Assembly (NCBI RefSeq): GCF_009936135.1
Contig: NZ_CP047901.1
Coordinates: forward strand, 152,984-216,983
Length of the DNA stretch: 64,000 nucleotides
Source: Candidatus Chazhemtobacterium aquaticus
GTDB lineage: Bacteria > Patescibacteriota > Microgenomatia > UBA1400 > Chazhemtobacteraceae
Reading direction: 5' to 3'
Position 1 is the first letter of the stretch; each line of letters begins with the position of its first letter. This document shows, piece after piece, positions 6,994-21,470 of this stretch. Made by a program: the position numbers and the translations under genes. The notes beneath the pieces are model-generated. The model worked only from the letters and a program-made list of their open reading frames with translations. It made no database searches and was not told where the DNA came from.

Positions 6994-7111
6994 TTGCCGC
7001 GATTATACTATCTTACTTGAAGAATTTGTATAACTACGTCCTGGCCACACACTTTTGTCACAAGCTCCCTGTCTCCAAAGCAATACAAACCACAATCAAA
7101 TCGTGATTTAT

Positions 7112-7561
7112 TTATTGAACACAAAACCCCGAAAATGATTGGCTACCTGCCCAAACACTAGTACTCGATCGAGAAAACGTACCATCATTCTTATTTATAG
7201 TAATATTATCAGTACCCCCCGATGACGTAACAACCCCAATAGTTACTACATTTTCGTCTTCTAAGAGCTTATCCCAAACTTGAGTTCCCCCTAAAGGAAA
7301 ATTTACCGACGGAGTATTGGTAAACATATCTGTAAGAACCAGAAAATCACCAACGTCTGATTTTTTTGTTGATTCGGTTATTTCACATCTTAAAATGTTA
7401 GCCATTTGAAAAATAGGCTTATACAAATCCGATGTCCCAATCAATCCACTCATCCTTATCCAAAGACCACTAGCTATCATCAACATTATCACCAAAACAG
7501 CTTTATAAACTTTCTCATCAATCCACTTTTCACGAGTGGTTTCCTCTTTTATTACTGCCAT
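7112..7561 (-). CDS. hypothetical protein with N-terminal TM
   Basis: 149-aa ORF. Confidence 0.35.
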   Translation of the reverse strand: MAVIKEETTREKWIDEKVYKAVLVIMLMIASGLWIRMSGLIGTSDLYKPIFQMANILRCEITESTKKSDVGDFLVLTDMFTNTPSVNFPLGGTQVWDKLLEDENVVTIGVVTSSGGTDNITINKNDGTFSRSSTSVWAGSQSFSGFCVQ

Positions 7562-7568
7562 TTTATTT

Positions 7569-8522
7569 CTATTTATAAATATCCCTATGCAAATATAAAA
7601 ACGATTGCTCTGATAACCTTACTGCCTCAGGTATTTGCCTGCTATCAGATACAAGAGTATGACACGAACCATTGGTCCAATGGCCAACTTTGGAACAATC
7701 AATCATTTCCAAAGAAGTTTTAACATAATCGTGGTGGAAACGATAATATATCTTGAGCCCTCTTTTATTGGGAACGATTTCAGCATAATTGCGACCATGT
7801 CTTGACATGTAGGCAATATATTTCTTGGTATATTTAACCTTCGTTTCAGGTTTTACCACCATCAATTGTTTTTCAAACTCCGCAAGCAATGTCAACGTCT
7901 CTTCCCAGCCCTCTTTTACCAAGTCTTCAAGCTCATATACCTTAACTTCTTTTGCCACATCTTTTATAAGCTTATCCTTTGTGTATGCCTGAATTGATAC
8001 GGTCGTCTTAAAAGGTTTTATGGGGTCAAATTCAACTATTCCGTTTTCATACGTTTTTACCTCATATAAGGAAAACGGCAGATCTTTAAAGTTAATTGCG
8101 TTCTTCTGATAATTAGTAAACTCCGGAGAAATAAAGATCAATCTTGATTGCTCCCAGTCAATATCACCCTTATCAAAGTTTTTTTTCAAACGCCGATTAA
8201 GCTCTAAAACAAACTCAGCTTTATTATGAAGCATGGCAGAAAGATAAGAAAAACCCTGATCAATAACGCTAAAATTCCTGTCCTTCTTATACTCAATAAT
8301 TACGAACGATTTTTGATGTTCGTCAAAAGTCAGAGTGTCAATATAAAAATCCTGCTCCTGAACCCGTACACTAAACTCATTATTCAGATAACCACTAACA
8401 AATCTTAAGCCAAAAATTGTTTCTAGATTTTCCTCGGTAAGCTTCTGAATATCACGCTCAAGGCCAAGCCTTTTCTCTCTTACTAGTTCTAATCGATTCC
8501 CTTTCTTTGTATAAATTGCCAT
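7569..8522 (-). CDS. hypothetical protein with PD-(D/E)xK-like nuclease motif (NucS/DUF91-like N-domain)
   Basis: N-terminal region ...FYIDTLTFDE...FVIIEYKKD fits a D...ExK restriction-endonuclease-like core. Remainder unassigned. Confidence 0.3.
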   Translation of the reverse strand: MAIYTKKGNRLELVREKRLGLERDIQKLTEENLETIFGLRFVSGYLNNEFSVRVQEQDFYIDTLTFDEHQKSFVIIEYKKDRNFSVIDQGFSYLSAMLHNKAEFVLELNRRLKKNFDKGDIDWEQSRLIFISPEFTNYQKNAINFKDLPFSLYEVKTYENGIVEFDPIKPFKTTVSIQAYTKDKLIKDVAKEVKVYELEDLVKEGWEETLTLLAEFEKQLMVVKPETKVKYTKKYIAYMSRHGRNYAEIVPNKRGLKIYYRFHHDYVKTSLEMIDCSKVGHWTNGSCHTLVSDSRQIPEAVRLSEQSFLYLHRDIYK

Positions 8523-8709
8523 ATTAACTTACCTAGCTCCACACTGTAAACAGCGTTAGAAACATTATACGACAACAAGAAGAGTATATTTGTCTTTCAA
8601 ACTTAAAAAATAAGACAAACGAAATTAAAGATGTAGTGGCATGGCAACTATTCTAAAAAACACTATTGCAATTATGTAATAATTGTTTTAAATTTCAAAC
8701 AATTATTGT

Positions 8710-9456
8710 ATGACTAAAATCACAAAACCCGGACCAAAACCAGCTAAAAACACCTTCGGCTTTATGGACGAGGTGGGACTACTACACTCACCCTCAACAG
8801 AACGACTATTCGGCTTAGGGTTACTTAAGCTCCACCACCCATCAGAACTACATAAAAGTATCGTCAACTATAAAAATAAGACAGGGTTTCATTCAGAATT
8901 CAAGTTCGCAAATGTCAGCAATAGCAATCTCACGCTATATAAAGGATTTATAGATTTGTTTTTTGATACTAAACATTCCCACTTTAATAGCATATTGTTT
9001 GACAAAAAGAACCTAGATCTAAAAAGCTACTTTAGAAACAATCATCACAAAGCTTACAACTCTTTCACAAGCAAACTTATTGCGGAGTCACTTGAGGCAG
9101 GTGAATATATTGTTGTCCTCGCTGACGATTTGAGCACGCCTAAGCACGATAACTTTGAAAAAGAAGTTAAGAAAAAAGTTAAGGTGAAAGCCAGAAGGAA
9201 CGCCCTGTATGGTATTTGCCGGCTCGAATCTCATGCTGTAAGCGAACTTCAAATGGCAGATGTCCTCATTGGAACAGTGGCGTATTCATTTAAAATTAAA
9301 TACAAAGTGGCTGGGCTTAACAGAAAAAACGCCAAGTTCAGACTACTAGTTCATCTTCAAAACAAACTTAACACTGACTACTTAGCAGAATCTCACAACT
9401 ATAAAGCAAAATATGGAATTAAATTTAAAATTAACGAATTCTTTGATGAAAAATAA
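8710..9456 (+). CDS. DUF3800-family protein
   Basis: N-terminal FMDEVG motif (DUF3800 IDESG-like) and C-terminal H..SELQMADVLIG motif. Confidence 0.5.
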   Translation: MTKITKPGPKPAKNTFGFMDEVGLLHSPSTERLFGLGLLKLHHPSELHKSIVNYKNKTGFHSEFKFANVSNSNLTLYKGFIDLFFDTKHSHFNSILFDKKNLDLKSYFRNNHHKAYNSFTSKLIAESLEAGEYIVVLADDLSTPKHDNFEKEVKKKVKVKARRNALYGICRLESHAVSELQMADVLIGTVAYSFKIKYKVAGLNRKNAKFRLLVHLQNKLNTDYLAESHNYKAKYGIKFKINEFFDEK

Positions 9457-9562
9457 AAATAGACAGCGCTATGAATACAATCCCGAACAAGCAGGAATTC
9501 ACGCTCTCTGTCTATAAAACTATTATATTGTGATCCCCAAAATACGTCAACACTTCTAATAA

Positions 9563-9970
9563 TGACGAATTACTAAGGACTTCTGTGTTATAAAACGAAA
9601 AGAGTATCGGGTAAAACAGAAGGCAATCAACAAGAAAATTGAGAAGCTACAGTTTGCCGATGAGGAATACTACATAACCTCATCTTACCTGCTAAAGCTG
9701 GCTGAAAACGCTGGAAAAATCTTTGAGAGTTCTGAAGCTCACGAAAAACGGCTACTTTTGAAAATGGCACTTCAGAACTTAGAGCTAAAGGGCAAAAAAG
9801 CCCGATATGACTGGATAAAACCGTTTGACAAGATAGCTTTTTACGCCTCTCGTCAAAGTTGGCTCGAGGATCGCAGTGTTAATATAACTAACTTATTTAT
9901 AGCGCCTAAGAATTATAAGTTAGTTAGTAAGTTACAAAAAGAGATGGAGGAAACCAAGAATTCTTCTTAA
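9563..9970 (+). pseudogene. C-terminal gene fragment of an unidentified (recombinase/integrase-like?) family, copy 1 of 2
   Basis: The open frame begins right after a stop at 9563 with no catalytic N-terminal part. Its product ...KEYRVKQKAINKKIEKLQFADEEYYITSSYLLKLAENAGKIF...KRLLLKMALQNLELKGKKARYDWIKPFDKIAFYASRQSWL is homologous to 20439..20723. Confidence 0.35.
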
Positions 9971-10346
9971 CTTTTTCGTCTTGGGCGACGTTAATTCCTT
10001 GTTGTTTCTTTAGATTTTCCTCAAATTCCTTCTGCCTTGCTTTATACTCTTCTTCTGTTACCAATCGCTCTTCGTATAAAGATTGGTAAAGAGAAAACGC
10101 TGATGCTTCAAGTGTCCAAACGGCATTTGCAACGTCTTTTACTGCAGAATACATATTATTGTTAACGTCGACAACAATTCTCCTTAAACCTGTGGATATG
10201 CCGTTCGCGTCCTGCTGCCAAATTTTAACCTGTGATTTCTTATGTTCAGCGTCTTTACGAGCAGCAGAAAACTGCCAAATGTTAATACCTACAGAAATAA
10301 TTCCAAATACTGTAGTAAAAATAGTCCAACCCTCGGCAGTATCCAT
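9924..10346 (-). CDS. hypothetical protein with N-terminal TM
   Basis: 140-aa ORF. Confidence 0.3.
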   Translation of the reverse strand: MDTAEGWTIFTTVFGIISVGINIWQFSAARKDAEHKKSQVKIWQQDANGISTGLRRIVVDVNNNMYSAVKDVANAVWTLEASAFSLYQSLYEERLVTEEEYKARQKEFEENLKKQQGINVAQDEKVKKNSWFPPSLFVTY

Positions 10347-10717
10347 ATTATATTGGTTATATTAACAACTAACCTGCTCCGAGCGCTGGACGCTATTCGA
10401 ACTTGCATTAAGCATGATAATACCAGCTTTTACTCCCTCCTAAGCGCTTAAATACTGTAAATTGCCTCCACTGCTTCCACTGCCTCCATTTTCCCATTGG
10501 TTTTTATGTAACGATTACACACCTCTGTCCTCGAGGGGTACCCCCGGGGTGGCCTTGTTAAAACCTCTTACCTCCCCTGATGGAACAAAGCGCGAGTAAA
10601 GTAGCACCACCATAGAGATGTCGTTACCACCCCACACTATAAGCAAGATCTAATCTTTTTGAACCCTCCCTTCCGCTCTAACAGCTATAATTCACACTAT
10701 TCCTTCATTTATTCAGT

Positions 10718-11854
10718 TCATCTCAACACCACGTCCTCCAACAAATATTGACATAGGACCTCAGCCGAATATCGTTTGCTTCCTTCCAAACAGCTCTGTG
10801 ATAACTGACTCCAGTTACCAGGATCGTTAAGTAAGTTTAAAAACTGCACCATTTCTTTTCTTTGATCCATATCCATCAATGCTCCGAACGATCCATTAGT
10901 CTCTTCAAAAATTTCTAACGAACCTGGAGACGGCAAACACAAAACTGGAGTACCTTCTCTAGCCGCTTCAACGGTCACCTGTCCCCAACTTTCCGTCCGC
11001 GATGGCATAAACAAGAGATGTGATCCTGCGTAATAGTCGGCCAATTCCGGCCATCCTTTTTCTCCAACAAACTCAACAGGTAAACCACTAGTCTCTTGTT
11101 TTAACATCTGAAAATATTTCGGATCAGCAATTGGCCCAACTACTCTTATGTTCCAGTTCTCAATATTACTTCGCTTTAGTTCCTCTCCCAGCAATCTGAT
11201 GTTTTCTAAACCTTTCTCTGAAGATATCCTCGACACAACCAATATATTAAATTGGGATACACCTCGTTGATCAAAACTTAAATACTCCCTCTCTGGTCTG
11301 GGATGAAGTGGCGGTCTGTGGATAGTCACACCATTTTCGTCTTGAGCAATACCGGCCAAGACCAGCGAGTGCGCCACCGATCTTGAGTTAGCAATATGCC
11401 TTACACCATAGTCCTTCATTGACCGCCGCAAAGCGGTGACTAACCCCCTAGATGGCTTCCTTAACCAATGCTTTACTTCATCAATGGCTTTATCAAACTT
11501 TCTCTCGTGAGGCTGGTCTGTTTTAGTACGCCAATAAGCCACTACCCTACCCTTTAACTCATCTGGCAGCATATAAAAAGTTGCCAAGCCGTATCTCGTC
11601 GGATGGATCAATAAAATGGAGTCCGGGTTAACTCTTGAAATTTCTTCTGCAGCATCATGGGCTTCCAAGATAAAGTTTTTATCCCCACGTGGAGATAAAA
11701 ATTTCAGACCACCCAGTTGCGATGTCCATAGGTCAGCGTATGTCTGTAGCGAACTCGGTATACCACCTACCCCGTCCATACCATGGTCTGAAACTACAAC
11801 CAAATTCGATCCCGCCAACCTTTCCTTGGAAACTTCCCTCTCCAGGCGACTCAT
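10718..11854 (-). CDS. glycosyltransferase family 4 (GT-B fold)
   Basis: C-terminal SRTESWGQVTVEAAREGTPVL EX7E-type motif typical of GT4. Confidence 0.6.
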   Translation of the reverse strand: MSRLEREVSKERLAGSNLVVVSDHGMDGVGGIPSSLQTYADLWTSQLGGLKFLSPRGDKNFILEAHDAAEEISRVNPDSILLIHPTRYGLATFYMLPDELKGRVVAYWRTKTDQPHERKFDKAIDEVKHWLRKPSRGLVTALRRSMKDYGVRHIANSRSVAHSLVLAGIAQDENGVTIHRPPLHPRPEREYLSFDQRGVSQFNILVVSRISSEKGLENIRLLGEELKRSNIENWNIRVVGPIADPKYFQMLKQETSGLPVEFVGEKGWPELADYYAGSHLLFMPSRTESWGQVTVEAAREGTPVLCLPSPGSLEIFEETNGSFGALMDMDQRKEMVQFLNLLNDPGNWSQLSQSCLEGSKRYSAEVLCQYLLEDVVLR

Positions 11855-12345
11855 TTTAATAACCTAGTAAGCTGCCTATACAAATAAGTCAAAATTATTT
11901 CCGGCGACCGCAAATAATATAAAAAGAGCTTCTTGGTATTTATGTCCTGTTTTCTTTCAATAACACTTTCCAAATTCTTCGCAGCATCCTCAACCCAAAC
12001 CTTTTGATAAAAAGGTAGCTGAGAAGGTAGGCGTTTTAATGGCCAATACCTAACCGCCGCCGTTTCTTTTCCCAAACGGGGCTTTCCCGACACCACCCGA
12101 CACTCAAAGACATAGGTCTTGCCAGTTGGCTTGTTAGTCTGTTTTTGATAAACACCAGTTTGTCTTACCACCCTAACCTTAAAGCCCGTCTCCTCTTCGG
12201 TTTCCCTCTTAGAAGCATACTTGGGCTCTTCATTTGGGCCAATGCCTCCTCCAGGTACTACCCATACAGGCAGATCCCGCCTCTTTACCAGCAACACTCC
12301 TTTTCTAGTTTTGTTAAACACAATACCTGCCGCTCCATTTGTCAT
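11851..12345 (-). CDS. NUDIX hydrolase
   Basis: Nudix box GGGIGPNEEPKYASKRETEEETG (Gx5Ex7REUxEExGU). Confidence 0.7.
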   Translation of the reverse strand: MTNGAAGIVFNKTRKGVLLVKRRDLPVWVVPGGGIGPNEEPKYASKRETEEETGFKVRVVRQTGVYQKQTNKPTGKTYVFECRVVSGKPRLGKETAAVRYWPLKRLPSQLPFYQKVWVEDAAKNLESVIERKQDINTKKLFLYYLRSPEIILTYLYRQLTRLLK

Positions 12346-13271
12346 TTGTTTTTTAAGTGATATTTGATAACTTTACTCGCGGAAATGCCCCAATATACCA
12401 ACAGTCCCGCTTCAAGCATAATTCTCATCAGTAAATTATGCTCTGGAAGAAAGTGTTTGTTGTTAAACCTTCTCATTGAGCGGTAAAGATCAAGACTGGA
12501 CTTAAATGGAGCCTTTGCCCTACTCTTTCCTCCATGATGTACAACCTCAACCTCTGGAAAATAAAAAATGTCCCAAGTTTCACCAGTTTCCGGGTTGACT
12601 GTTTGACCTATACGATACATCCAATCAACGTCTTCTATCATCATGAAATATCCTTCATCCAACAAACCTGCCTGCTCAATTGCTTCCCTTCGTACCATCA
12701 TACAAGCCCCTGATACTGCCCCAACCTCTGCGGTTTCATTAGGATCGAGGTGACTAAGACTATATTGGCTAAATCGCGGATCATCAGGAAACAACTTCTT
12801 CAAGCCCAAGGCCTTGGCCAACATATTTTGGGGCGTTGGTAAACCCCTGCGGCAACGCCAATCAACCGAACCATCATTGTGGACTAACTTGGGGCCAACC
12901 ACTCCCACATTTTGGTTCTCCTTTAAGAAGTTAACCAAACTACCTAATGCTTCCTCAGTTACCTCTGTATCGGGGTTTAGAAGCAATACGAAAGGAGTAT
13001 CTGTCTCTTCAATTACCTTGTTATTTGCCCCAGCAAAACCGACATTTTTCTCGCTCTCTATTACCCTCACTTCAGGAAATTTATCAGTTACTTGCCTAAA
13101 CGGCTCTGGCGAAGCATTGTCAACCACTACGGTTTCAAAGATTACCCCTTGATCCTGACGTAAAGACTCCAAACAAGCATCAAGATAGTCGGCACTATTG
13201 TAGTTGACTATAATTACCGAAAGCTCTGGTCTATTTTCTCTTTCAGCCATATTAAAAGATACTATGTTCAC
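12342..13271 (-). CDS. glycosyltransferase family 2
   Basis: LSVIIVNYNSADYLDACLESL... GT2 N-terminal signature with DxD-like region. Confidence 0.65.
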   Translation of the reverse strand: MNIVSFNMAERENRPELSVIIVNYNSADYLDACLESLRQDQGVIFETVVVDNASPEPFRQVTDKFPEVRVIESEKNVGFAGANNKVIEETDTPFVLLLNPDTEVTEEALGSLVNFLKENQNVGVVGPKLVHNDGSVDWRCRRGLPTPQNMLAKALGLKKLFPDDPRFSQYSLSHLDPNETAEVGAVSGACMMVRREAIEQAGLLDEGYFMMIEDVDWMYRIGQTVNPETGETWDIFYFPEVEVVHHGGKSRAKAPFKSSLDLYRSMRRFNNKHFLPEHNLLMRIMLEAGLLVYWGISASKVIKYHLKNK

Positions 13272-14211
13272 CCATTGTTAAATACCAATTATCTACTAAC
13301 TCCTGGGCCGGAAAAAAGCCACCTGCAGTAAACATCGCCAACCGTCTTCCCCAACTGTTTTTTCTAAAACCCAACTCCTGTAACCACTGGCTCTCTGGAG
13401 CCACCAAGGGATAAGAAGAAACAAGTTTCATCCCCATTTGTGCTAATGCCTGTTGGCTGCCATCAACAACTTCTAAGAAACTCTCCTTGCCCATCGCTAC
13501 AACATCAACAATGTGCCCCTTGGTCTCTCCATAACTCTTAATAACCGCTACTGCCTCGCCTGACGAGGAACCAATAAAGCGGTAGTTACCAGACGGGTTT
13601 TCTAAATATCTCCATCTTAGATAGTCCACGCTTCTTACTGTTCCCGGGTTGGCAAATAGTCTCCGGTAATACAAAGCTGGCGCTAAACTCAAAAATTCCT
13701 CACCACTTAGCTCTACAAAAGTTCCCTTAACAGAAACTAATGGCCTCTCCCATAAAAATGCTTCCCTTTGTGCCGTCGCCCTCTTAAGCACCGTCCCTGC
13801 CGAAAAACTATTTGGAAATAAAATTGCGAAGTCAATACCATTAACATCAATTAGCTGGTGACGCACCTCCTGTATCAATTTATAAAGAGTGATGCCGCCC
13901 CTTAGTGATGGTTTGACTACACCCTCAATAATCTCTGCCCCTCTTATTGTATGATCACCTACCTGAACATCCTTAATTGTCGCTCCCAAATGGCCGGCTA
14001 CTTCTCCATCCTCCTGAAGCGCAACCAACCGTACAGAAGACCCATCCCTATATCTCCAGTCCCAACCGCTCATGTCACCTGCCATTAATTGTTGGATATA
14101 CGGACTGTAGTCCTTATAACCAAAAACATCCTGGTATAACCTTAAAGTGCTTTCGCTATGCTTAGCTTCAAAGGGAACTGTTTGAGTGTAAAAACCTCTT
14201 AGTCTTTCCAT
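13252..14211 (-). CDS. hypothetical protein (possible duplicated acyltransferase-like fold)
   Basis: 319-aa ORF; weak resemblance only. Confidence 0.3.
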   Translation of the reverse strand: MERLRGFYTQTVPFEAKHSESTLRLYQDVFGYKDYSPYIQQLMAGDMSGWDWRYRDGSSVRLVALQEDGEVAGHLGATIKDVQVGDHTIRGAEIIEGVVKPSLRGGITLYKLIQEVRHQLIDVNGIDFAILFPNSFSAGTVLKRATAQREAFLWERPLVSVKGTFVELSGEEFLSLAPALYYRRLFANPGTVRSVDYLRWRYLENPSGNYRFIGSSSGEAVAVIKSYGETKGHIVDVVAMGKESFLEVVDGSQQALAQMGMKLVSSYPLVAPESQWLQELGFRKNSWGRRLAMFTAGGFFPAQELVDNWYLTMGEHSIF

Positions 14212-14213
14212 TA

Positions 14214-15236
14214 TTAATCAATTAATTGATAAAAACCCTCTACTGCTTTAGCCATGACAACTTTCGACAAGTCTTTTTGCCGCAGCAAGCTATAAAACCT
14301 TGATGAGCTTAGAACAGCCATCCTCGACAAAAAAACCAGTTGATAACACGCCGCCCGCTGCTTCCACGAGTTATCCCCGACACTTGTAAGATAACTCCCC
14401 AGCACCATTGCCTCTGTTTCCATTAGTGAAACCAAATTGGGAACATCAGCCGAGTACTCAATTACATTTTTATTTCCCCGGAGAGAGTAAGAGCAACTGA
14501 CATCATTGGGATCATTAACGGTCAATGCCCACTGTCCGATCTGTCTAGCAATGATGTAGGCCGGGTCATACCAACCAGCCTTTTCAAAGTCAATTAATAC
14601 CCATCTTCCATCTTGAGCTATCAAAATATTTGATCCATTGGCATCACCAGTATCCAGCACTATCTCTTCTGGCTCTCCCACCAAAGAAACAGCCAAACCA
14701 AAAGTATCCTTCAAAGAAGGGTACTCTCTACCATTAATTACCATTGGTTGATCCCCGGCAAAACCAACTTTTCCACTTTCCAAACTCTTACCTATTTTCT
14801 TCAAGGTTTTTTCTGTCAAACGGCGGTGGTCATATACAGTCTTTTCCTCACCCGCCTTCCGCATATTTCCCGTCCATAATGCCATAGTCCTGTCTACATA
14901 GTCCTGATATGTTTGAAACGCTTCTTGCCTGTCTCCTCGAACCAAGTCAAACAACTCTTCTCCCTCAAAAAACTCATACTCGATCCCCCAATTAGAAACG
15001 GACAATATTTTAGGCTTAGGAAATATCTCTGGCACCAAACCATACCCTTCAACCTCTTTCTTCACTCTTCCCGGCGTCCCCATCTTCAAAATAATCTTCT
15101 CCCCATCCTCCTTCTCAAGGACACAAACATAAAAAGGGGAACCCGGACGAACTTCTATCTCGCTGGAAAAATTAGCTTCTTTAAGTTTGGGCAGGTTGAC
15201 GATACGGCTGACTTGCCGCTCAACCATTTCTAACAT
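14214..15236 (-). CDS. protein-kinase-like phosphotransferase (APH/choline-kinase family)
   Basis: DTGDANGSNILIAQDGRWVLIDFEKAGWYDPAYI matches the catalytic-loop and DFE motifs of the APH/CotS-like fold. Confidence 0.55.
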   Translation of the reverse strand: MLEMVERQVSRIVNLPKLKEANFSSEIEVRPGSPFYVCVLEKEDGEKIILKMGTPGRVKKEVEGYGLVPEIFPKPKILSVSNWGIEYEFFEGEELFDLVRGDRQEAFQTYQDYVDRTMALWTGNMRKAGEEKTVYDHRRLTEKTLKKIGKSLESGKVGFAGDQPMVINGREYPSLKDTFGLAVSLVGEPEEIVLDTGDANGSNILIAQDGRWVLIDFEKAGWYDPAYIIARQIGQWALTVNDPNDVSCSYSLRGNKNVIEYSADVPNLVSLMETEAMVLGSYLTSVGDNSWKQRAACYQLVFLSRMAVLSSSRFYSLLRQKDLSKVVMAKAVEGFYQLID

Positions 15237-15355
15237 TATGTGTGCATTATATAAGGTATTTCCCTATCTGTCGATAAAAAACTCCTCAAATGTAGTTCAA
15301 ATTTTTTGCGGAATCAGATACTAACTTTCCTCTCCGATCCTTCTCCCAACCCCTT

Positions 15356-15976
15356 TTAGACCGACTTCTTCTCAGCGTCCACCATCCGTTTATCCCAATC
15401 TCCATCCCACCCCTGAATTTTGGCTTGCTGACAAAGTTCAATAAGTTCTTTGTACTTACCTTGCTTCTTTAGGATGATAGCCAATTGCGTGTACCCAGCG
15501 TGACCAGGTAATGGCTGTTTGGGATATTCCTTCAGGAATTGTTTAGCTGCTGCCGGAGCAATCTTTATTTGGTTCTCACAAGCCTTAATTGCTTCATCTA
15601 GTGCATCGGGGTTAGCATCCCGTTCTCGATAGTAAATCTCCATCCGTTGTTGTAGTGCAAAATGCTGATCAAGAATATCATCACCTTCATCAGCCAACTC
15701 GTTTGCTTTTTCGATGATTTTCTTCGCTATCTCTCTGTCTCCTGGCTTGTTAAACCAACCAGCAAGGCAATGCAACAAACCCGCCGCGGTTTGTGATGAG
15801 TAGGTAAGCTTTCCCTCTGTTAGCGGCTTTGTTTCAGAATCACCACCCATGGGATGATACACCTCTTCAATCCGGTTTCTTTCATCCTTGGTAAACATGG
15901 ACAACCACCAATCCTCCAAACCATAGTAACCAATATCACCTTCGATTTTCTTTGGTTTGTTAAAAAGTCCCAGCAT
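15356..15976 (-). CDS. hypothetical protein
   Basis: 206-aa ORF whose stop overlaps the start of the 15976..17118 ORF (same coordinate). Confidence 0.35.
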   Translation of the reverse strand: MLGLFNKPKKIEGDIGYYGLEDWWLSMFTKDERNRIEEVYHPMGGDSETKPLTEGKLTYSSQTAAGLLHCLAGWFNKPGDREIAKKIIEKANELADEGDDILDQHFALQQRMEIYYRERDANPDALDEAIKACENQIKIAPAAAKQFLKEYPKQPLPGHAGYTQLAIILKKQGKYKELIELCQQAKIQGWDGDWDKRMVDAEKKSV

Positions 15977-17118
15977 TATTTAATCCTCACTAATAATGCG
16001 ATGTGATGCTCAAATGTTTTAGCAAACTCAGTAAAGGCGTCAAAGTTACTAAACATAAAAGACTCCTCTAGTCCCGCCTCTGAAGTGAGTGTTAAGTCAC
16101 CGTACTTCACAATCGGAATTTGGTAGTTACCCTTAAATCGTCGATCGCGAGAACCATCTTTGTTTGTTTTCTTCCATGTATGCTGGATTACCTCGGTGTC
16201 ACCAGGAACTTTTTCTTCTTCGACATATCCAGTAAGCTTCATTACTGCCTTTATTTCTTTCAAATCAAAAATACCAAACTCTTGATTGCCCTTATACAAA
16301 AGTAAAAAAGTGGGAAAGAAAAACAAATCTGGACCGTTACTATTTGCTAGGTACAAAGAGGGCAGATCACTTTTGATGAAATCGACCACTTTTTTATCAT
16401 CTCCGTTAATGAGAGTGCGCTTAGTGGCGGTTTGGGCAATAGTACGAGCTTTGGCTTTATCAACCGACTCAGCGTAGGTTAAATCCCAAATCTTCTTACT
16501 CTTCATCAGCTCGTCGAATGCGTCAATGCAGTTTAGCCAGCTCTTCTCCAACTGTGACTTATCTGCAAAGGTAAGCTTGACGTAAGTTTCCAAGACTAAT
16601 TCCTCAATTTTTTTGACGAGCTTTTGCTGATCGGTACGCATAACAGCGATTTTCTTGTTGAAGAATCCAACAATCAAAGGAAAACTGAGTAAATGAGCAG
16701 CTGTTAAGGCGTAAAACTTGATCTTAGCTGACCGAAGTTCTTTGTTAAGCTCCATTCGCTTGTTATAGATGTCAGTCACCTGATTTCGCAGCTCCACAAA
16801 ATTCTTACTCGTCACAGTTAAGGCCTTACTAGAGCTCCTGATTATGTTCCCCGTATTTGATATTTCGATGCCTGGACGAAGATCGTCATTAGCATTACGC
16901 GAGGATGAGTTCTTTCGCGTTTTCGGGACTTTAAGGAGCCTGTCAACACCCACAGTGGTCCTACTATAGACACGGTTGTAAAGTGCTTTTTTGGGATTTG
17001 TAAGCAACCCCATACCTCTTGGAGCCTTAAGACCCAAACTATGACGCACAACTCGCTTCCAGGAGGTTCTGGCAGCAATTCTTTTTTTAAGAGAGGGTGT
17101 TCTTAGTCCAAATTTCAT
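15976..17118 (-). CDS. hypothetical protein
   Basis: 380-aa ORF with a basic N-terminus. Confidence 0.35.
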   Translation of the reverse strand: MKFGLRTPSLKKRIAARTSWKRVVRHSLGLKAPRGMGLLTNPKKALYNRVYSRTTVGVDRLLKVPKTRKNSSSRNANDDLRPGIEISNTGNIIRSSSKALTVTSKNFVELRNQVTDIYNKRMELNKELRSAKIKFYALTAAHLLSFPLIVGFFNKKIAVMRTDQQKLVKKIEELVLETYVKLTFADKSQLEKSWLNCIDAFDELMKSKKIWDLTYAESVDKAKARTIAQTATKRTLINGDDKKVVDFIKSDLPSLYLANSNGPDLFFFPTFLLLYKGNQEFGIFDLKEIKAVMKLTGYVEEEKVPGDTEVIQHTWKKTNKDGSRDRRFKGNYQIPIVKYGDLTLTSEAGLEESFMFSNFDAFTEFAKTFEHHIALLVRIK

Positions 17119-17120
17119 AA

Positions 17121-18215
17121 TTAAAGACCACTTTCTAACTCCAAAACATCCAAACCTTTAAATGTCGGTATAGAAGATTGTCCAGCTATTCCTTGAACAT
17201 TCCCACAAACCCCCGCCAAGCCTAATAAATATCTATTTAATTGTTGTTCTCGCTTTTTCCATGAAGATTCATAAGCTTTCCTTTCTCTATCAATTTGATC
17301 TTTCATTTCCTGGTGAACCTCTACCATTGCCTCTACTTGTTGGCGAAATTCCGTCCCAGTAATGTAGTCAAACATCAAATCAGCCTTTTTACCTCTGTGT
17401 TCTCCTATTGCTTTTTGACGTGCGACATCATGTAAACGATCACGAAGTGCTGTAGCAAGAGGGACGACCAAGCTTGGCTTACAAACCCAAACGCCATCCC
17501 TAAATTCCATATCAGACTGCATGTTATTTGGAATCGTGCTCGAAACCAAAATCGCTACATCAGCACTTTCATTCCGTTGATCTTGTTTAAGTTTAGACAA
17601 CCAACTATCTGACCAGTTCTTCTGGTAGTTTTTAAATTCCCAAAGAATCACCCCACATTTCGTCCCATTTCGAGAACAAACCGTCTGTCTAATGTCTGCC
17701 CCGTTTTGTCCCTTTTTAATCTCATCTACCAAATCAAAGGCAAAGGTATCTCTTAATAGAGATTCTATTTCCAGCTCTAGGATCTCGCCTTGTGTTTGCT
17801 GAGATCCTTGTTGCAACTTGATCTGAGCATCTTTAAGTTGCTGCTCGAGATCACTCAACTTCTTGTCTTTTTCCCTATCCTTCAATTGATGCTCCGATTC
17901 TGCTTGCCTTCTAGCGTCAAGTCTAATCTTTTCTTCTTCCTCAGCTATAGTTTTTTTCATCTGAAGATCTCTCTCCTCATCCTTTCTTCTCAGACCTCTA
18001 ATCTCTGTATTTAAATCTTCCAATTGTTTAAGCAAGGCTTTATTCCTATCTTTTTCTTCATTTGCAGTTTCCGTGAGATTCTTGACTGTGAGCTCATATT
18101 GAGACTCAAGTTTTTTACCAGCATCCTGCTCTGCTTGTTTCCTCACTGATTCGAGCTCTTCCTCATGTTTTACACGCTCTGCTGCAATAACCTCATCCTG
18201 TATCTGCCTCGTCAA
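17121..18215 (-). CDS. coiled-coil protein with conserved C-terminal domain (DUF2130-like)
   Basis: N-terminal highly charged heptad-like region (EEELESVRKQAEQDAGKKLESQYELTVKNL...) followed by a Cys- and Trp-containing globular C-terminal part. Confidence 0.35.
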   Translation of the reverse strand: MTRQIQDEVIAAERVKHEEELESVRKQAEQDAGKKLESQYELTVKNLTETANEEKDRNKALLKQLEDLNTEIRGLRRKDEERDLQMKKTIAEEEEKIRLDARRQAESEHQLKDREKDKKLSDLEQQLKDAQIKLQQGSQQTQGEILELEIESLLRDTFAFDLVDEIKKGQNGADIRQTVCSRNGTKCGVILWEFKNYQKNWSDSWLSKLKQDQRNESADVAILVSSTIPNNMQSDMEFRDGVWVCKPSLVVPLATALRDRLHDVARQKAIGEHRGKKADLMFDYITGTEFRQQVEAMVEVHQEMKDQIDRERKAYESSWKKREQQLNRYLLGLAGVCGNVQGIAGQSSIPTFKGLDVLELESGL

Positions 18216-18309
18216 AGCTTCCGAAATTTCATTCTCCTCCCCCTACTGGACTCGTTCCTCAACCAAGAAATTGATCTATCAGAAACACTAATAAAGCTAG
18301 AAACCAAAA

Positions 18310-18999
18310 CTATTGCACCTCTATATCAAACTCTGGGGTAAGTAAAACTTCTTTACCTGTAGGTTTGAATTTATCTCCTTCAGTTTTCCCAAAAGACGAC
18401 GTTATAAAGGACCTTTCTTCCTTTGTGCCTAACACCTTGTCATAATCAAGATCTATTGCCACTATGTTAGGAAATACTTGCGTAATTCTCCATTCCTTTG
18501 AATCAGGAGTAACATCACCGATATACCAAATATCCTTAACTTTAGGATTTAAATTTGCAAATTTATCCTTCAAGATGGTTGCAGGGGGAATTACAACATT
18601 TCTCCGAACATAACAAAGTAAGGTAATATTTGGATCTACAATCTTATTCAATTTAATCTTCTTTACAGCTTCTACAATATCTTCTTCTTCAACTTCTTTC
18701 CTCCATTCAAAAACTTCAAGTTTCAACAGTTCCTTCGAATTACCAATCTCCCCTTCCACAAACGAGTAACAGTTAAAGTCTGGTGAACCATCATCTCTTA
18801 CAGGTGTAAACCACCATTCCATGCCAAACTTATCTTGAAGTGCGATCAGAAACATAGAAGCGATCCACGCCTCCCTCGTAACCTTATATCGCCTATCACT
18901 CAGTAAAACACCACCAACATTCAGATATGTCTTGGCAAAAAGACGCACGGCGGTGTAGGGACTAATCAAGACTTCTTCTTGTTTTTTACCCTTGGTCAT
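18310..18999 (-). CDS. hypothetical protein
   Basis: 229-aa ORF. Confidence 0.35.
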   Translation of the reverse strand: MTKGKKQEEVLISPYTAVRLFAKTYLNVGGVLLSDRRYKVTREAWIASMFLIALQDKFGMEWWFTPVRDDGSPDFNCYSFVEGEIGNSKELLKLEVFEWRKEVEEEDIVEAVKKIKLNKIVDPNITLLCYVRRNVVIPPATILKDKFANLNPKVKDIWYIGDVTPDSKEWRITQVFPNIVAIDLDYDKVLGTKEERSFITSSFGKTEGDKFKPTGKEVLLTPEFDIEVQ

Positions 19000-19007
19000 T
19001 CACAAAC

Positions 19008-19190
19008 CTAATAAAGACTCAAAGACGAAGTTGTCCGCCATTTTCCTTCTGTAGTAATCTCTTCTCTTTTTGTCTCAGGAATAAACGGCCCCATATCAAC
19101 ATAAATTTTCTTATACTCTTGCTTTGCCTTTTCAATTTTCTTAGTAATCTTCTTAACAGATGTAGCTTTTTTTATCGTCTTCTTCATACT
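19008..19190 (-). CDS. small Lys-rich hypothetical protein (not in ORF track)
   Basis: My own translation gives MKKTIKKATSVKKITKKIEKAKQEYKKIYVDMGPFIPETKREEITTEGKWRTTSSLSLY (60 aa) between two annotated genes. Confidence 0.2.
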   Translation of the reverse strand, partial: SMKKTIKKATSVKKITKKIEKAKQEYKKIYVDMGPFIPETKREEITTEGKWRTTSSLSLY

Positions 19191-19199
19191 TTCAATATA

Positions 19200-20096
19200 T
19201 CATTGATGTGCATCAATGCTGGAGACATATGACTGTTCTCTACTTTCCACGCACTTGGTTACCTGATTAGAAACAAAACTATTCAGACGCACAAATAGTT
19301 CATAACTAGGCGACCAAACCTTATCATCTTTTTCCATGTTCTCAACCACCAACTTGCAAGAATTAGCCTTGTCTCTATCAATTAGGCGGCCATGAGCCTT
19401 TGTAACTTTTGGCGTTAAGAACATCTTTATGTTCTTTTTTATGTCTTTTTTACTTAATGACGACATCATCCCTGTTTTCAAAGCTCCGACCGCAATATCT
19501 GCTGACAAGGAGATTGCATCTTCGTATTCTTTTATTTCTCTTGAGTCATATCTGAGAAGTTGTTGGAGATAAGGTTCGAGATTCCCTTTTTCATTTGTCG
19601 CCTTATCGAACAAGTCTCTATAACTCTCCACAATGTTATATAGCGAAAACCTCTTATACCTACCATCTTCCACAAACGACAATTGAGGATCAATAGGTCC
19701 CAACTCCGAAGCTGGTCCCATATATATTTTGCTTGCACCGAAACATACCATAGTCGCAGCAGATTTAGCTTTCCCTGGAATGATTACCCAGTAGTCACCT
19801 GTGCCACTGTACCGTCTACAAATATTTATTATTCGTTCTGCGGCCAAACCACTTCCGCCTGGCGAACTTAGCAATAAAGCAATACCATCACTCAAGTCCA
19901 TTGTCTGCAATAAAGCCTCTAGCATATCAGCATCATCATCACTCAAGATAACTGGATATTTAAAGCTAGTAAAAAGAGAAATAACAGTCCTGCCCAACTC
20001 TCGTTCAAGCTTAATTATTACCTTCTTTCTCGTATCGTGAGATTGATTTCTCTCATTAAGCACCTGTCCTATTACAGGTATCTTACTGCCTGCCAT
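19200..20096 (-). CDS. ClpP-fold serine protease (SDH / S49-like family)
   Basis: LLLSSPGGSGLAAERIINICR...GKAKSAATMVCFGASKIYMGPASELGPIDPQL matches the SPGG serine motif of ClpP/SppA-fold proteases. Confidence 0.55.
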   Translation of the reverse strand: MAGSKIPVIGQVLNERNQSHDTRKKVIIKLERELGRTVISLFTSFKYPVILSDDDADMLEALLQTMDLSDGIALLLSSPGGSGLAAERIINICRRYSGTGDYWVIIPGKAKSAATMVCFGASKIYMGPASELGPIDPQLSFVEDGRYKRFSLYNIVESYRDLFDKATNEKGNLEPYLQQLLRYDSREIKEYEDAISLSADIAVGALKTGMMSSLSKKDIKKNIKMFLTPKVTKAHGRLIDRDKANSCKLVVENMEKDDKVWSPSYELFVRLNSFVSNQVTKCVESREQSYVSSIDAHQ

Positions 20097-20157
20097 GAGC
20101 AGATTCTAACATAAACTTGATAAAATAAGATAAACAACAATAAAGATGTAACGACTA

Positions 20158-20541
20158 ATGACCTACGAAGAAAAACTCAACATCACTGTTGAAGCTATTA
20201 ACGAAGCTAGACAGTTCACTAGCAAAGAATACTTCACCAAACTCAGACTTGGCACAGGTAACGGACTTTCAAGAATTGATTTAGGCCAACTTCACGACAT
20301 CCTTCTTCAACTGGAACAAGACGAAAAGATAATCAAAATCGAAGACACTCCAACAGCTCTCAAAAGCCTGACCAATAAGACCTCTGACATCATGAATGCA
20401 GGAGGTAACAAGAACTACTTTCTTATAGATGTATTACTATGGACTTCTATGAGAAAAAACGAGAAGAGTATCGCAATAAACAAGACGAAATATCAACAAA
20501 AATATCAAGACTCCAAACAGTCGACAAGGACTACTATCTAG
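20158..20541 (+). CDS. hypothetical ORF, possibly the upstream part of a frameshifted gene
   Basis: 127-aa ORF that overlaps the fragment-copy-2 frame at 20439 in another frame. Confidence 0.25.
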   Translation: MTYEEKLNITVEAINEARQFTSKEYFTKLRLGTGNGLSRIDLGQLHDILLQLEQDEKIIKIEDTPTALKSLTNKTSDIMNAGGNKNYFLIDVLLWTSMRKNEKSIAINKTKYQQKYQDSKQSTRTTI

Positions 20542-20723
20542 CCTCAGAATACATCCTAAAACTCGCCAACAAGGCAGCAGATCTGCTAAAACGTTCCGAA
20601 CAGAAAGAAAAACGCATCCTAATCAACATGACACTTCAGAACCTTACCTTAGATGGCAAAAAAGTGCGATATGAATGGAAAAAACCATTCGACAAAATCG
20701 CATTTTATGCACATCGTCAAGCC
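20439..20723 (+). pseudogene. C-terminal gene fragment, copy 2 of 2 (homologous to 9563..9970), truncated by tRNA-Asn
   Basis: ...REEYRNKQDEISTKISRLQTVDKDYYLASEYILKLANKAADLL...KRILINMTLQNLTLDGKKVRYEWKKPFDKIAFYAHRQAW, after which the frame runs into the antisense of the tRNA (…LPGLDSNQRP). Confidence 0.35.
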
Positions 20724-20798
20724 TGGCTCCCCGGGCTGGATTCGAACCAGCGACCTTGAAGTTAACAGCTTCCTGCTCTACCGCTGAGCTACCGGGGA
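20724..20798 (-). tRNA. tRNA-Asn (anticodon GTT)
   Basis: Folded by hand on the minus strand: acceptor TCCCCGG/CCGGGGA, D-arm GCTC-AGCGGTA-GAGC, anticodon loop CT-GTT-AA, T-arm GCTGG-TTCGAAT-CCAGC, discriminator G, CCA encoded. Confidence 0.8.
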
Positions 20799-20865: not shown

Positions 20866-21084
20866 TTATTTCTTCCCCTTTTTCTCAAAAAACAGCATAT
20901 AAACCACCGGCAATATCCCCACGCTATTTATCACCAACATTGCCACAAACCAGCCTTGCTGTCCTTTTCTAGCCGCTCTCCACATTCCCATGCCTCGTAA
21001 AATCACATCAGCCACGATTATCAACATCAACACCGTCCACCACCCACCCATTGCCGCCTCCATTATCTCCCAGTTACCTCTCAT
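20866..21084 (-). CDS. small two-TM membrane protein
   Basis: 72 aa, ...WRAARKGQQGWFVAMLVINSVGILPVVYMLFF... Confidence 0.35.
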   Translation of the reverse strand: MRGNWEIMEAAMGGWWTVLMLIIVADVILRGMGMWRAARKGQQGWFVAMLVINSVGILPVVYMLFFEKKGKK

Positions 21085-21413: not shown

Positions 21414-21470
21414 ATCCTATCATTTCTTTCTCCCCTTGCAAACTTTTTTTAGGGCCATATAATCACCCCT

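What the first reader, a model, noticed from the sequence alone, without database searches (positions are those of the whole stretch)
9563..20798. About 11-kb accessory segment bracketed by two diverged direct copies of a gene C-terminus, the distal one truncated by tRNA-Asn
9563..9970 and 20439..20723 encode clearly homologous ~100-aa C-terminal fragments (…YY(I/L)(T/A)S(S/E)Y(L/I)LKLA…NLEL/TLDGKK(A/V)RY(D/E)WKKPFDKIAFYA(S/H)RQ(S/A)W), both on +. Neither has an upstream catalytic part. The second runs straight into the 3' end of tRNA-Asn(GTT) on the opposite strand. The enclosed genes (GT4, NUDIX, GT2, kinase-like, unknowns, DUF2130-like, ClpP-fold protease) are all on the minus strand. This looks like the scar of an integrated or decayed island at a tRNA-Asn site, with the fragments being remnants of its integrase or another element gene. 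DUF3800 and a PD-(D/E)xK-like gene lie just outside.
Basis: seen in the sequence. Interest (0 to 1): 0.6.

Follow-up and report, generated by a model that had tools for sequence, protein, structure and literature searches.

The report
Stacked recombinase-island remnants at tRNA-Asn
Two decayed mobile islands sit one behind the other next to a tRNA-Asn gene in a Patescibacteria genome, each leaving only the last ~97 codons of its large serine recombinase gene, cut at a spot where dozens of related elements are cut too.

Summary
Windows 9566-9862 and 20430-20726 (+) are homologous (56% aa, E 3e-39), and the second ends on the CCA end of tRNA-Asn(GTT).

Both are the last ~97 codons of ~500-aa large serine recombinases (Resolvase+Recombinase+Zn_ribbon). 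In Patescibacteria/Microgenomates relatives, the full-length genes end on the CCA end of tRNA-Asn in the same way. The window has no catalytic part.

The two copies are not one island's attL/attR repeat. They come from two different elements stacked at the tRNA:
- an older remnant, 7034-9865, carrying candidate defence genes;
- a younger 10.86-kb element, 9866-20723, inserted between fragment 1 and the tRNA.

The relative L027 has the same flanks with one fragment abutting tRNA-Asn and neither cargo block.

The unexpected part is the 5' edge of the fragments. It falls within a few bases of one point (G-N-ATTACT, codons G-(S/R)-I-T). The same cut appears in 17 DNA junctions and 37 of 63 scorable short representatives. 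Truncated and full-length genes are interspersed in the tree, so the truncation recurs. Its mechanism is unresolved.

The island itself is ordinary. The element family and its stereotyped truncation appear undescribed.

The parts
7034..9565 (.). Cargo of the older element remnant: unknown ORF 7112-7561(-), PD-(D/E)xK protein 7569-8522(-), DUF3800 protein 8710-9456(+)
   Evidence: Homology to the relative L027 stops at window 7033 and resumes at 9569. Homologues of the PD-(D/E)xK gene lie in the cargo of full-length elements L019 and L030, and directly upstream of a truncated copy in L032. PADLOC hits: PDC-S18 (3.7e-88) and PDC-M04A (5.4e-25). The lowest GC in the surveyed 1-32 kb (0.34-0.37) is here. 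Window 8599-8638 matches the backbone promoter region of L010.
9566..9862 (+). Fragment 1: last ~97 codons of the older element's large serine recombinase gene. It has no usable start codon. The hot-spot junction lies just 5' of ATTACT at 9569
   Evidence: It is 92.6% nt identical to the 3' end of the full-length gene in L020.
9860..9865 (+). TGGCTC, the only sequence shared with the tRNA-Asn 3' end at the distal copy. Inferred old crossover point (attL-type junction)
   Evidence: The sequence after it is not significantly tRNA-like.
9866..20157 (-). Cargo of the younger element, all on the minus strand: g9924 (9924-10346), GT4 (10718-11854), NUDIX (11851-12345), GT2 (12342-13271), GNAT-like (13252-14211), APH-like (14214-15236), TPR-like (15356-15976), unknown/phrog_17982 (15976-17118), DUF2130 (17121-18215), unknown (18310-18999), SDH/ClpP-like protease (19200-20096)
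   Evidence: A g9924 homologue sits immediately after a truncated copy in L015, the same position. This block is absent from L027.
20158..20436 (+). 5' stub (93 codons) of the element backbone gene 'g20158-like', with its promoter region from about 20103. It is cut by the hot-spot junction
   Evidence: Homologous to residues 1-93 of 340-371-aa proteins in full-length elements L012, L019 and L020, and in L034. Promoter-region homology was found.
20430..20726 (+). Fragment 2: last ~97 codons of the younger element's recombinase gene. ATTACT at 20433, ATG at 20439, and the final TGG is the CCA end of the tRNA
20724..20798 (-). tRNA-Asn(GTT), the host integration target. rpoD and its neighbour to the right are conserved in relatives
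   Evidence: Synteny with rpoD and g23360 holds in L023, L027, L031, L033, L037 and L040.

Best explanation
Window 7034-20723 is a stack of two immobilised integrative elements of one Patescibacteria family.

Shown:
- Intact members (L019, L020, L025 and others) carry a variable minus-strand cargo block. A plus-strand backbone follows: g20158-like gene, SpoVG-like gene, a conserved 390-aa protein, usually a restriction-modification or methylase gene, and a ~500-aa large serine recombinase.
- The recombinase gene ends exactly on the CCA end of a tRNA gene on the opposite strand. The target is mostly tRNA-Asn, and also tRNA-Gln and tRNA-Glu.
- The window has no recombinase catalytic part. Both copies start at the same internal point, just 5' of G-N-ATTACT (codons G-(S/R)-I-T). 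The same truncation recurs independently in many lineages. It removes the mobility backbone and keeps the cargo with its divergent promoter.

Inferred:
- A new element inserts by a crossover at or just inside the tRNA 3' end (TGGCTC...). That places its own recombinase 3' end against the tRNA and pushes the previous element's recombinase 3' end outward.
- Fragment 1 is the displaced end of the older element. Fragment 2 is the end of the younger 10.86-kb element.

Open: the cause of the fixed breakpoint. My leading guess (about 0.35) is a cis-acting site inside the recombinase gene at which DNA is cut or replication pauses. Rejoining would then occur at short microhomologies upstream. This could happen in the chromosome, or in the free circle, giving recombinase-less cargo circles that a helper recombinase integrates.
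For: Parent family:
- A profile of the fragments finds 2725 cluster representatives. The full-length ones (485-512 aa) carry PF00239, PF07508 and PF13408, and match over their last ~97 residues.

tRNA association:
- In 31 genome loci, all in MAGs with Patescibacteria/Microgenomates-type gene content, the match ends 2 nt inside tRNA-Asn(gtt) in about a dozen loci.
- It also abuts tRNA-Gln. In L001 it is followed by a 22-nt copy of the tRNA-Glu 3' end, 133 bp before the intact tRNA.
- Full-length gene plus tRNA-Asn occurs in L020, L024, L025 and L030.

Stacking:
- L024 has a 4.6-kb element with an intact recombinase. It is flanked by a 290-bp direct repeat, about 97% identical, running from ATTACT to TGGCTCCCCC. 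The outer copy is truncated.

Presence/absence:
- L027 (Ca. Microgenomatus) matches window 5708-7033 at 83.5% nt.
- After only 89 bp it has a fragment that abuts tRNA-Asn and matches window fragment 1 (80.8%) better than fragment 2 (69%).

Composition:
- GC is 0.34-0.44 with weak skew across roughly 5-20.7 kb. The flanks show 0.44-0.50 and very strong skew.

Recurrent hot spot:
- 17 distinct DNA junctions share G-N-ATTACT, with unrelated sequence to the left.
- 37 of 63 short cluster representatives with at least 12 upstream residues have unrelated sequence up to the two residues before 'IT'.
- Truncated copies are nearest neighbours of full-length ones: window-1/L020 92.6%, L032/L020 94.6%, L014/L037 93.3%, L024 pair 96.6%.

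Left breakpoints:
- They map to element genes: the g20158-like 5' part in 7 loci, plus SpoVG, recombinase codon ~44, a methylase and an Xis-like gene. Microhomologies are 2-6 nt.

Backbone conservation:
- The backbone is conserved in 8 full-length elements.
Against: - At fragment 1 only 6 bp (TGGCTC) are shared with the tRNA. The crossover point in this window is therefore inferred from register and from relatives, not from a significant repeat.
- Fragment 1 is closer to L020's gene than to L027's fragment. The L027 comparison therefore shows presence/absence, not strict orthology of the fragment.
- An alternative geometry cannot be excluded from single loci: integration at the internal ATTACT site into a resident fragment.
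- It is not known whether the younger element's recombinase was lost before or after insertion.
- No excised circle or empty site from this organism was seen.
- Inferred crossover points at the hot spot scatter over about 10 nt. That fits a break or pause plus microhomology better than a precise recombinase crossover.
Confidence: 0.8

Rival explanations
1. One island with flanking repeats. A single integration created or used the two fragment copies as its attL/attR-type direct repeats, so 9563-20798 is one element.
For: Two direct copies bracket an accessory segment, and the distal one is at a tRNA. L024 shows a near-identical 290-bp repeat around one intact element.
Against: The window copies are only 56% (aa) and about 69% (nt) identical, and they sit on different branches of the family tree. 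Fragment 1 is 92.6% identical to an intact gene elsewhere. Conservative site-specific recombination does not duplicate 290 bp. Foreign DNA with element-type cargo continues left of fragment 1 to 7034.
Confidence: 0.07
2. Landing-pad model. The family's real attachment site is the internal ATTACT site. A resident 'stub + fragment + tRNA' acts as the target, and the incoming circle inserts upstream of the resident fragment. That rebuilds a full recombinase gene from its own N-terminal part and the resident C-terminal part. Truncated fragments would then be empty or left-end sites, not deletions.
For: The 5' boundary is fixed to within a few bases in many lineages. In L024 the repeat is bounded by both ATTACT and TGGCTC, so that locus fits either geometry. 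ATTACT is invariant in 28 distinct copies, and third-codon positions are most conserved for about 45 nt downstream of it.
Against: - In the window, fragment 2 has no recombinase N-terminal part upstream, so a fixed-end deletion is still required.
- L027's tRNA-adjacent copy resembles the window's distal copy, as expected for insertion at the tRNA side.
- Left flanks are cut element genes at varying positions with only microhomology.
- The model does not explain why the fragment always ends on the tRNA CCA end, across three tRNA species.
Confidence: 0.1
3. Rolling-circle origin model for the hot spot. The conserved 390-aa backbone protein is a gpII-like initiator that nicks within (GG)TAGTATTACTA inside the recombinase gene. 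Premature termination at nick-like sequences upstream would release circles holding fragment, attachment site, cargo and promoter, but no backbone. A helper recombinase would then integrate those circles.
For: - One endpoint is fixed and the other variable, the side downstream of the site is retained, and left partners have short matches to the site.
- The 390-aa protein is a core gene of the family, with 1905 homologues and no annotation.
- Its invariant residues line up colinearly with invariant motifs of M13 gpII: MID..VL.L, S.PK.L.G.N.F, Y191 with Y197, and R.E.R. Global alignment gives z 3.4, 2.5 and 1.9.
- Fold hits to three unnamed viral proteins reach E 6e-9 to 4e-8.
- L034 may be a circular recombinase-less element.
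- From my own memory, not checked here: fixed-end deletions at the nick site are classic for pC194 and f1.
Against: - Profile-profile comparison with the gpII family is negative: hhalign probability 0.3%, E 0.18.
- There are no Pfam, NCBIfam, PHROG or PDB hits.
- The structure model is only moderate (pLDDT 64).
- Inferred crossover points scatter from about -7 to +5 rather than sitting at one phosphodiester bond.
- L024's intact element lacks the 390-aa gene.
- L034's circularity is not proven.
Confidence: 0.2
4. The fragments are kept because they work: either as a small protein (second coiled-coil helix plus C-terminal subdomain) that interferes with incoming recombinases, or as DNA that supplies the left half of the target site for the next element.
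For: - Most truncated copies keep an open frame, and fragment 2 has its own ATG at the junction.
- dN/dS for truncated-versus-full pairs (0.11-0.49) is no higher than for full-versus-full pairs (0.06-0.59).
- The junctions place the fragment behind the retained backbone promoter.
- Elements do stack at such sites.
Against: - Fragment 1 has no start codon.
- L003, L036, L038 and L040 copies carry frameshifts or internal deletions.
- Low dN/dS is equally expected if the truncations are recent.
- Selection cannot by itself give a boundary precise to a few bases.
Confidence: 0.15

Closest known systems
tRNA-gene-associated genomic islands and integrative elements (classically with tyrosine integrases, e.g. 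P4-like islands)
   Same: Accessory DNA inserted at the 3' end of a tRNA gene, with the integrase gene next to the tRNA. Composition is atypical, presence varies between relatives, and islands form tandem arrays at one tRNA.
   Different: The recombinase here is a large serine recombinase. Its reading frame runs right onto the CCA end. There is no long tRNA-derived direct repeat at the far end: 6 bp here, and 10-26 bp in some relatives.
Large serine recombinase elements (phiC31/Bxb1/A118 integrases, SCCmec Ccr, XisF, Tn4451 TnpX / Tn5397 TndX)
   Same: Parent proteins have the Resolvase + Recombinase + zinc-ribbon architecture. NCBIfam's best, sub-threshold similarities are to XisF and CcrA/B.
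   Different: To my knowledge, known serine integrases mostly target protein-coding or intergenic sites. This family targets tRNA 3' ends of several species. It also has an extra ~97-aa C-terminal region with no Pfam model, which is the only part left in the window.
Accretion and CIME-type (cis-mobilisable) elements of streptococcal ICEs, and SGI1 tandem arrays
   Same: Successive site-specific insertions at one target give arrays. The older members have lost their recombination module but keep attachment-site sequence and cargo.
   Different: The module loss here is stereotyped: the same breakpoint inside the recombinase gene in dozens of lineages. No conjugation genes are present. Mobilisation in trans is only inferred.
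SSV1-type integrases whose attP lies inside the integrase gene
   Same: In copies not abutting a tRNA, the reading frame continues for 25-35 codons with a conserved tail (W..FRT.DW..YLEYPE). At a tRNA this tail is replaced by tRNA-encoded residues. The crossover therefore appears to lie within the last part of the ORF.
   Different: Only the extreme C-terminal tail would be exchanged, and the gene is not split into two large parts. This was not shown directly.
Fixed-end deletions at rolling-circle origins (pC194, f1 miniphage)
   Same: One deletion endpoint is constant and the other variable with short sequence matches. The side downstream of the site is retained.
   Different: No recognised initiator or origin was found, and the junctions are not at a single bond. 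This is a resemblance recalled from memory and only weakly tested here.

Membership tests
Large serine recombinase (LSR) gene remnants | Homology to proteins with Resolvase (PF00239) + Recombinase (PF07508) + Zn_ribbon_recom (PF13408) | tested here: met
   The fragment profile matches the last ~97 aa of 485-512-aa proteins with that architecture.
Large serine recombinase (LSR) gene remnants | Catalytic and DNA-binding domains present in the window copies (a functional recombinase) | tested here: not met
   tblastn with residues 1-392 of P0007 and 1-404 of P0037 finds nothing in the window. There is no Pfam hit on either fragment.
tRNA-targeting integrative element / genomic island | Insertion abuts the 3' end of a tRNA gene, with the recombinase gene adjacent | tested here: met
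   The last codon of fragment 2 is the CCA end of tRNA-Asn. The same arrangement with intact genes occurs in L020, L024, L025 and L030.
tRNA-targeting integrative element / genomic island | Direct repeat of the tRNA 3' end at the distal boundary | tested here: inconclusive
   Only TGGCTC (6 bp) follows fragment 1. No longer match exists in the window, and the downstream sequence is not significantly tRNA-like. Relatives show 10-26 bp.
tRNA-targeting integrative element / genomic island | Segment absent from a related genome with conserved flanks | tested here: met
   L027 has window 5708-7033, then 89 bp, one fragment and tRNA-Asn. rpoD synteny to the right is conserved.
tRNA-targeting integrative element / genomic island | Atypical base composition | tested here: met
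   GC and GC skew differ from the flanks between roughly 5 and 20.7 kb.
Accretion array / CIME-like immobilised elements | Two or more elements in tandem at one target, with older ones lacking the recombinase but keeping attachment-site sequence | tested here: met
   The two fragments come from different lineages. Element-type cargo lies on both sides of fragment 1. L024 shows an intact element stacked on a truncated one.
Accretion array / CIME-like immobilised elements | Mobilisation in trans by a helper recombinase | not testable with these tools
   Only the possibly circular recombinase-less contig L034 hints at it.
Rolling-circle replicon (gpII / Rep_trans-type initiator with nick site) | Initiator protein recognisable by sequence or fold | tested here: inconclusive
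   No Pfam, NCBIfam, PHROG or PDB match, and hhalign against the gpII family is negative. Colinear motif matches exist, with global alignment z of 1.9-3.4. BFVD fold hits are to unnamed proteins.
Anti-phage defence island | Genes matching known or candidate defence families | tested here: met
   The older remnant matches PDC-S18 (3.7e-88) and PDC-M04A (5.4e-25). These are candidate systems only. None of the 8 younger-element proteins tested matches PADLOC. Intact relatives carry restriction-modification genes.

The most novel reading that the evidence does not exclude
The recombinase gene of this widespread Patescibacteria element family contains a cis-acting site: a small palindrome, (GG)TAGTATTACTA, at the codons for the tip of the coiled-coil. 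At this site the element is repeatedly and directionally truncated. Each event removes replication and recombination genes in one step. It leaves the cargo, its promoter and a ~290-bp recombinase 3' end, which still forms the target for the next element. This would be a built-in route that turns mobile elements into fixed cargo (or helper-dependent satellites) and builds tRNA-linked islands in reduced genomes. The site may be the origin of a new, unannotated rolling-circle initiator family (the 390-aa protein).
Probability: 0.25. Interest if true: 0.7.

Novelty: new variant of a known kind. Interest (0 to 1): 0.5.

Why it matters
Patescibacteria (CPR) have tiny genomes, and little is known about how they gain and fix accessory genes. 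This locus gives a concrete, recurrent route. A family of serine-recombinase elements lands on tRNA 3' ends, stacks, and loses its mobility genes at a stereotyped point, leaving cargo behind. In this window the cargo is glycosyltransferases, a NUDIX enzyme, a kinase-like protein, a protease and candidate defence genes.

The family is abundant: 2725 cluster representatives for the fragment and 1905 homologues of the 390-aa backbone protein. Its backbone genes and the fragment have no match in any library searched, and the full-length recombinase is recognised only by generic recombinase domains. It is also absent from the phage, plasmid and viral collections searched.

Practical points:
- Short ORFs of this kind next to tRNA genes should be annotated as recombinase remnants that mark island boundaries.
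- tRNA-targeting large serine recombinases with attachment sites readable from such loci could interest genome engineers.

Tried and rejected
- Pfam on the fragments themselves gave no meaningful hit. The word-based homologue search found only five short ORFs. The parent family appeared only with the exhaustive profile search.
- I searched for a longer copy of the tRNA-Asn 3' end in the window and found none.
- I tested the idea that the sequence after TGGCTC mimics the tRNA T-arm (an attP mimic). A shuffle test was not significant for any of 12 tails, the window included. Only L010 and L036a contain a TTCGAAC heptamer. The claim is dropped.
- I considered that tRNA-like 3' halves after intact genes in L011, L017, L018, L019 and L033 might be intron-containing tRNAs. 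ARAGORN with introns finds nothing credible.
- Prophage idea: no relatives in IMG/VR. PHROG hits are only to unknown-function families and a ClpP-like protease. There are no structural genes.
- dN/dS as a test for function of the truncated fragments was uninformative, because the truncations look recent.
- A 16-nt match between the left flank of fragment 1 and the Xis-like stub of L027 is not a general motif.
- Diversity-generating retroelement (template/variable repeat) idea: rejected. No reverse transcriptase is present, and the differences between copies are not adenine-specific.
- Literature searches found no description of this family or of the stereotyped truncation.

Full report
**Observation**

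The two stretches are real homologues.
- BLASTP of the translated 9566-9967 against 20439-20756 gives 57/102 identities, E 3e-39.
- At the DNA level the similarity begins at ATTACT (9569 and 20433) and ends at TGGCTC (9860-9865 and 20724-20729).
- ARAGORN finds tRNA-Asn(gtt) at 20724-20798 on the minus strand. The last codon of fragment 2 (TGG, Trp) is therefore the encoded CCA end of the tRNA.
- Neither fragment has a Pfam match.
- tblastn with the N-terminal ~390-400 residues of two full-length parents finds nothing in the whole window.
- The genes between the fragments are on the minus strand, as described. The exception is a short plus-strand ORF at 20158.

**What the fragments are**

A word-based search found only five short ORFs. 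Their contexts were still telling.
- In L008/L009 the fragment abuts tRNA-Gln exactly at TGG.
- In L001 it is followed by a 22-nt copy of the tRNA-Glu 3' end, 133 bp before the intact tRNA.

An exhaustive profile search found 2725 cluster representatives. The full-length ones (485-512 aa) carry Resolvase, Recombinase and Zn_ribbon_recom domains and match the profile with their last ~97 residues. The fragments are therefore C-terminal remnants of large serine recombinases.

A scan of one genome per species returned 31 loci.
- The named ones are Patescibacteria/Microgenomates (Levy-, Shapiro- and Woesebacteria, Ca. Microgenomatus).
- In about a dozen, the match ends 2 nt inside tRNA-Asn(gtt).
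- L020, L024, L025 and L030 have an intact ~490-500-aa gene in that position.

**Architecture of intact elements**

In L019, L020, L025 and five others, the recombinase gene is preceded on the same strand by:
- a 340-470-aa protein, here called g20158-like;
- a SpoVG-like protein;
- a conserved 390-aa protein;
- usually a methylase or restriction-modification gene.

To the left of that backbone lies a variable block of minus-strand genes. No phage structural or conjugation genes were seen. The family is absent from IMG/VR, INPHARED and PLSDB.

**The window in that frame**

- The plus-strand ORF at 20158 is the first 93 codons of the g20158-like backbone gene, with its promoter region.
- Immediately after it comes ATTACT and fragment 2. 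Compared with an intact element, the rest of that gene, the SpoVG-like gene, the 390-aa gene and the first ~385 codons of the recombinase are missing.
- Left of fragment 1, the PD-(D/E)xK gene (7569-8522) has homologues in the cargo of L019 and L030, and directly upstream of a truncated copy in L032.
- That gene and the DUF3800 gene match the PADLOC candidate families PDC-S18 and PDC-M04A.
- Window 8599-8638 matches the backbone promoter region.
- A homologue of the first gene right of fragment 1 (9924-10346) sits in the same place after a truncated copy in L015.
- GC content and skew set roughly 5-20.7 kb apart from the flanks.

**Comparison with a relative**

- L027 (Ca. Microgenomatus sp.) matches window 5708-7033 at 83.5% nt.
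- After only 89 bp it has a truncated fragment that abuts tRNA-Asn.
- That fragment matches window fragment 1 (80.8%) better than fragment 2 (69%).
- rpoD and its neighbour lie to the right of tRNA-Asn in L023, L027, L031, L033, L037 and L040, as in the window.

So 7034-9565 and 9866-20723 are both extra DNA relative to L027. The younger block lies between a fragment-1-type copy and the tRNA.

L024 shows the process with an intact element. A 4.6-kb element with a full recombinase gene is flanked by a 290-bp direct repeat, about 97% identical, running from ATTACT to TGGCTCCCCC. The outer copy is truncated.

I conclude that new elements insert at the tRNA end and displace the previous recombinase 3' end. 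The window's two fragments belong to two successive elements.

A neighbour-joining tree supports this.
- Fragment 1 is 92.6% identical to the intact gene of L020.
- Fragment 2 sits on a distant branch, with a best identity of 70.7%.

**The stereotyped 5' boundary**

This is the part I did not expect.
- In 17 distinct DNA junctions, the sequence left of G-N-ATTACT is unrelated to the recombinase gene. Identity to intact genes starts there.
- Among cluster representatives shorter than 300 aa with at least 12 residues upstream, 37 of 63 have unrelated sequence right up to the two residues before 'IT'. Many more simply start there.
- Truncated copies are interspersed with full-length ones in the tree, often as nearest neighbours. 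The truncation is therefore recurrent, not inherited from one ancestor.
- The left sides are cut element genes:
  - the 5' part of the g20158-like gene, at about codons 1, 25, 28, 35, 83 and 93, in seven loci;
  - the SpoVG-like gene (L024);
  - recombinase codon ~44 (L022);
  - a methylase (P0006);
  - an Xis-like gene (L027).
- Where the native left partner can be inferred, it shares 2-6 nt with the site. Inferred crossover points scatter from about -7 to +5.
- The clustering of left ends just inside the first backbone gene is what selection for keeping the divergent cargo promoter would give. This is an inference.
- The fixed right end needs a mechanism. ATTACT is invariant in 28 distinct copies. 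Third-codon positions are most conserved at and for about 45 nt after it, although two-fold-degenerate codons inflate that signal.
- The site is a small palindrome, (GG)TAGTATTACTA.

**Attempts to explain the hot spot**

1. *Rolling-circle origin nicked by the 390-aa protein.*
   - For: the protein is a core gene with 1905 unannotated homologues.
   - For: its invariant residues line up colinearly with invariant motifs of M13 gpII, including Y191 with gpII Y197. Global alignment gives z of 3.4, 2.5 and 1.9.
   - For: a moderate model (pLDDT 64) hits three unnamed viral proteins at E 6e-9 to 4e-8.
   - Against: profile-profile comparison with the gpII family is negative. Nothing is found in Pfam, NCBIfam, PHROGs or the PDB.
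   - I rate this at about 0.2.
2. *The recombinase acting on a secondary site in its own gene.* This is possible but untestable here.
3. *Pausing at the palindrome, with slippage.* The stem is very short.
4. *Integration at the internal site into a resident fragment.* The window and L027 speak against this.

dN/dS does not separate truncated from intact copies. That fits recent truncation and says little about function.

**Claims I withdrew**

- The sequence after TGGCTC is not a significant tRNA mimic, in the window or in 11 relatives.
- tRNA-like halves after some intact genes are not detectable tRNAs.
- The circularity of L034 is only suggested. Its fragment is split across the contig ends and no recombinase catalytic part is present, but it could equally be a repeat-bounded contig.

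**Verdict**

- The finding is a correct observation of a decayed tRNA-Asn island.
- The 'integrase remnant' guess is right in kind: the parent is a large serine recombinase.
- The structure is two stacked elements rather than one island with flanking repeats, and the foreign DNA begins at about 7.0 kb.
- As a locus it is an ordinary kind of thing. The element family, its tRNA-CCA-end targeting by a serine recombinase, and above all the recurrent truncation at one internal point are not described in the literature I could search. They deserve follow-up.

Noticed in passing
window 1-5000 and 21000-32000: The plus strand of the host flanks has an extremely negative GC skew, -0.4 to -0.79 in 1-kb windows. 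It is much weaker inside the island. This is a useful marker of foreign DNA in this genome, but the cause of so strong a skew was not examined.
   Followed up: no
window 25225-28248: A dense RNA gene cluster lies 4.4 kb right of the island: tRNA-Arg(gcg), Ser(cga), Arg(ccg), Ser(gga), Ser(gct), Ser(tga) and a tmRNA with tag EPASEAAFAFAYAA.
   Followed up: no
L019 5151-6320, L020 6572-7741 (family P0156-P0275): A 390-aa protein is conserved at 65-91% identity in 1905 database proteins, all 'hypothetical', with no Pfam, NCBIfam, PHROG or PDB match. It is a core gene of the element family. It shows motif-level resemblance to filamentous-phage gpII, but the profile comparison is negative.
   Followed up: partly
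L034 1-7777: In this 7.8-kb contig the recombinase fragment is split across the two ends (residues 2-80 at 7536-7772, residues 80-96 at 2-52). It has no catalytic recombinase part of this family. It is either a free circular recombinase-less element or a contig bounded by repeats. It also holds a second, degraded serine recombinase (4092-5414).
   Followed up: partly
L011 1652, L017 10283, L018 8986, L019 10283, L033 10187: The recombinase genes or fragments here (intact in L011, L017 and L019) are followed by a tRNA-like 3' half (TGGCTCCCCCG..GGACTCGAACC..). A conserved ...GGACTATCTYATC... motif follows about 70 nt on. ARAGORN finds no tRNA, even when introns are allowed.
   Followed up: partly
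L023 16612-18246: A second, distant serine recombinase lineage (about 29% identity) sits next to tRNA-Asn with a 132-nt gap. It has displaced a frameshifted copy of the family studied here. Different recombinase lineages therefore compete for the same tRNA.
   Followed up: no
P0006 (254 aa); L024 5217-5350; L027 9917-9991: The hot-spot junction creates gene fusions and stubs: an EcoRI-methylase-like protein fused in frame to the fragment, a SpoVG-like gene cut at ...RPQGG, and an Xis/HTH_17-like gene cut after 26 codons.
   Followed up: partly
L032 1039-3851 versus 10001-10285: In this Woesebacteria contig, rpoD and its neighbour lie left of the fragment and in the opposite orientation to the arrangement in the window. 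This suggests an inversion or rearrangement at the island.
   Followed up: no
window 10718-15236: The younger element carries a tightly packed minus-strand run: GT4, NUDIX, GT2, GNAT-like and APH-like kinase genes, some with overlapping stops and starts. It looks like a sugar-nucleotide or cell-surface modification operon. The GT4 also matches the 'GT4 in conflict systems' Pfam model (2.3e-07).
   Followed up: no
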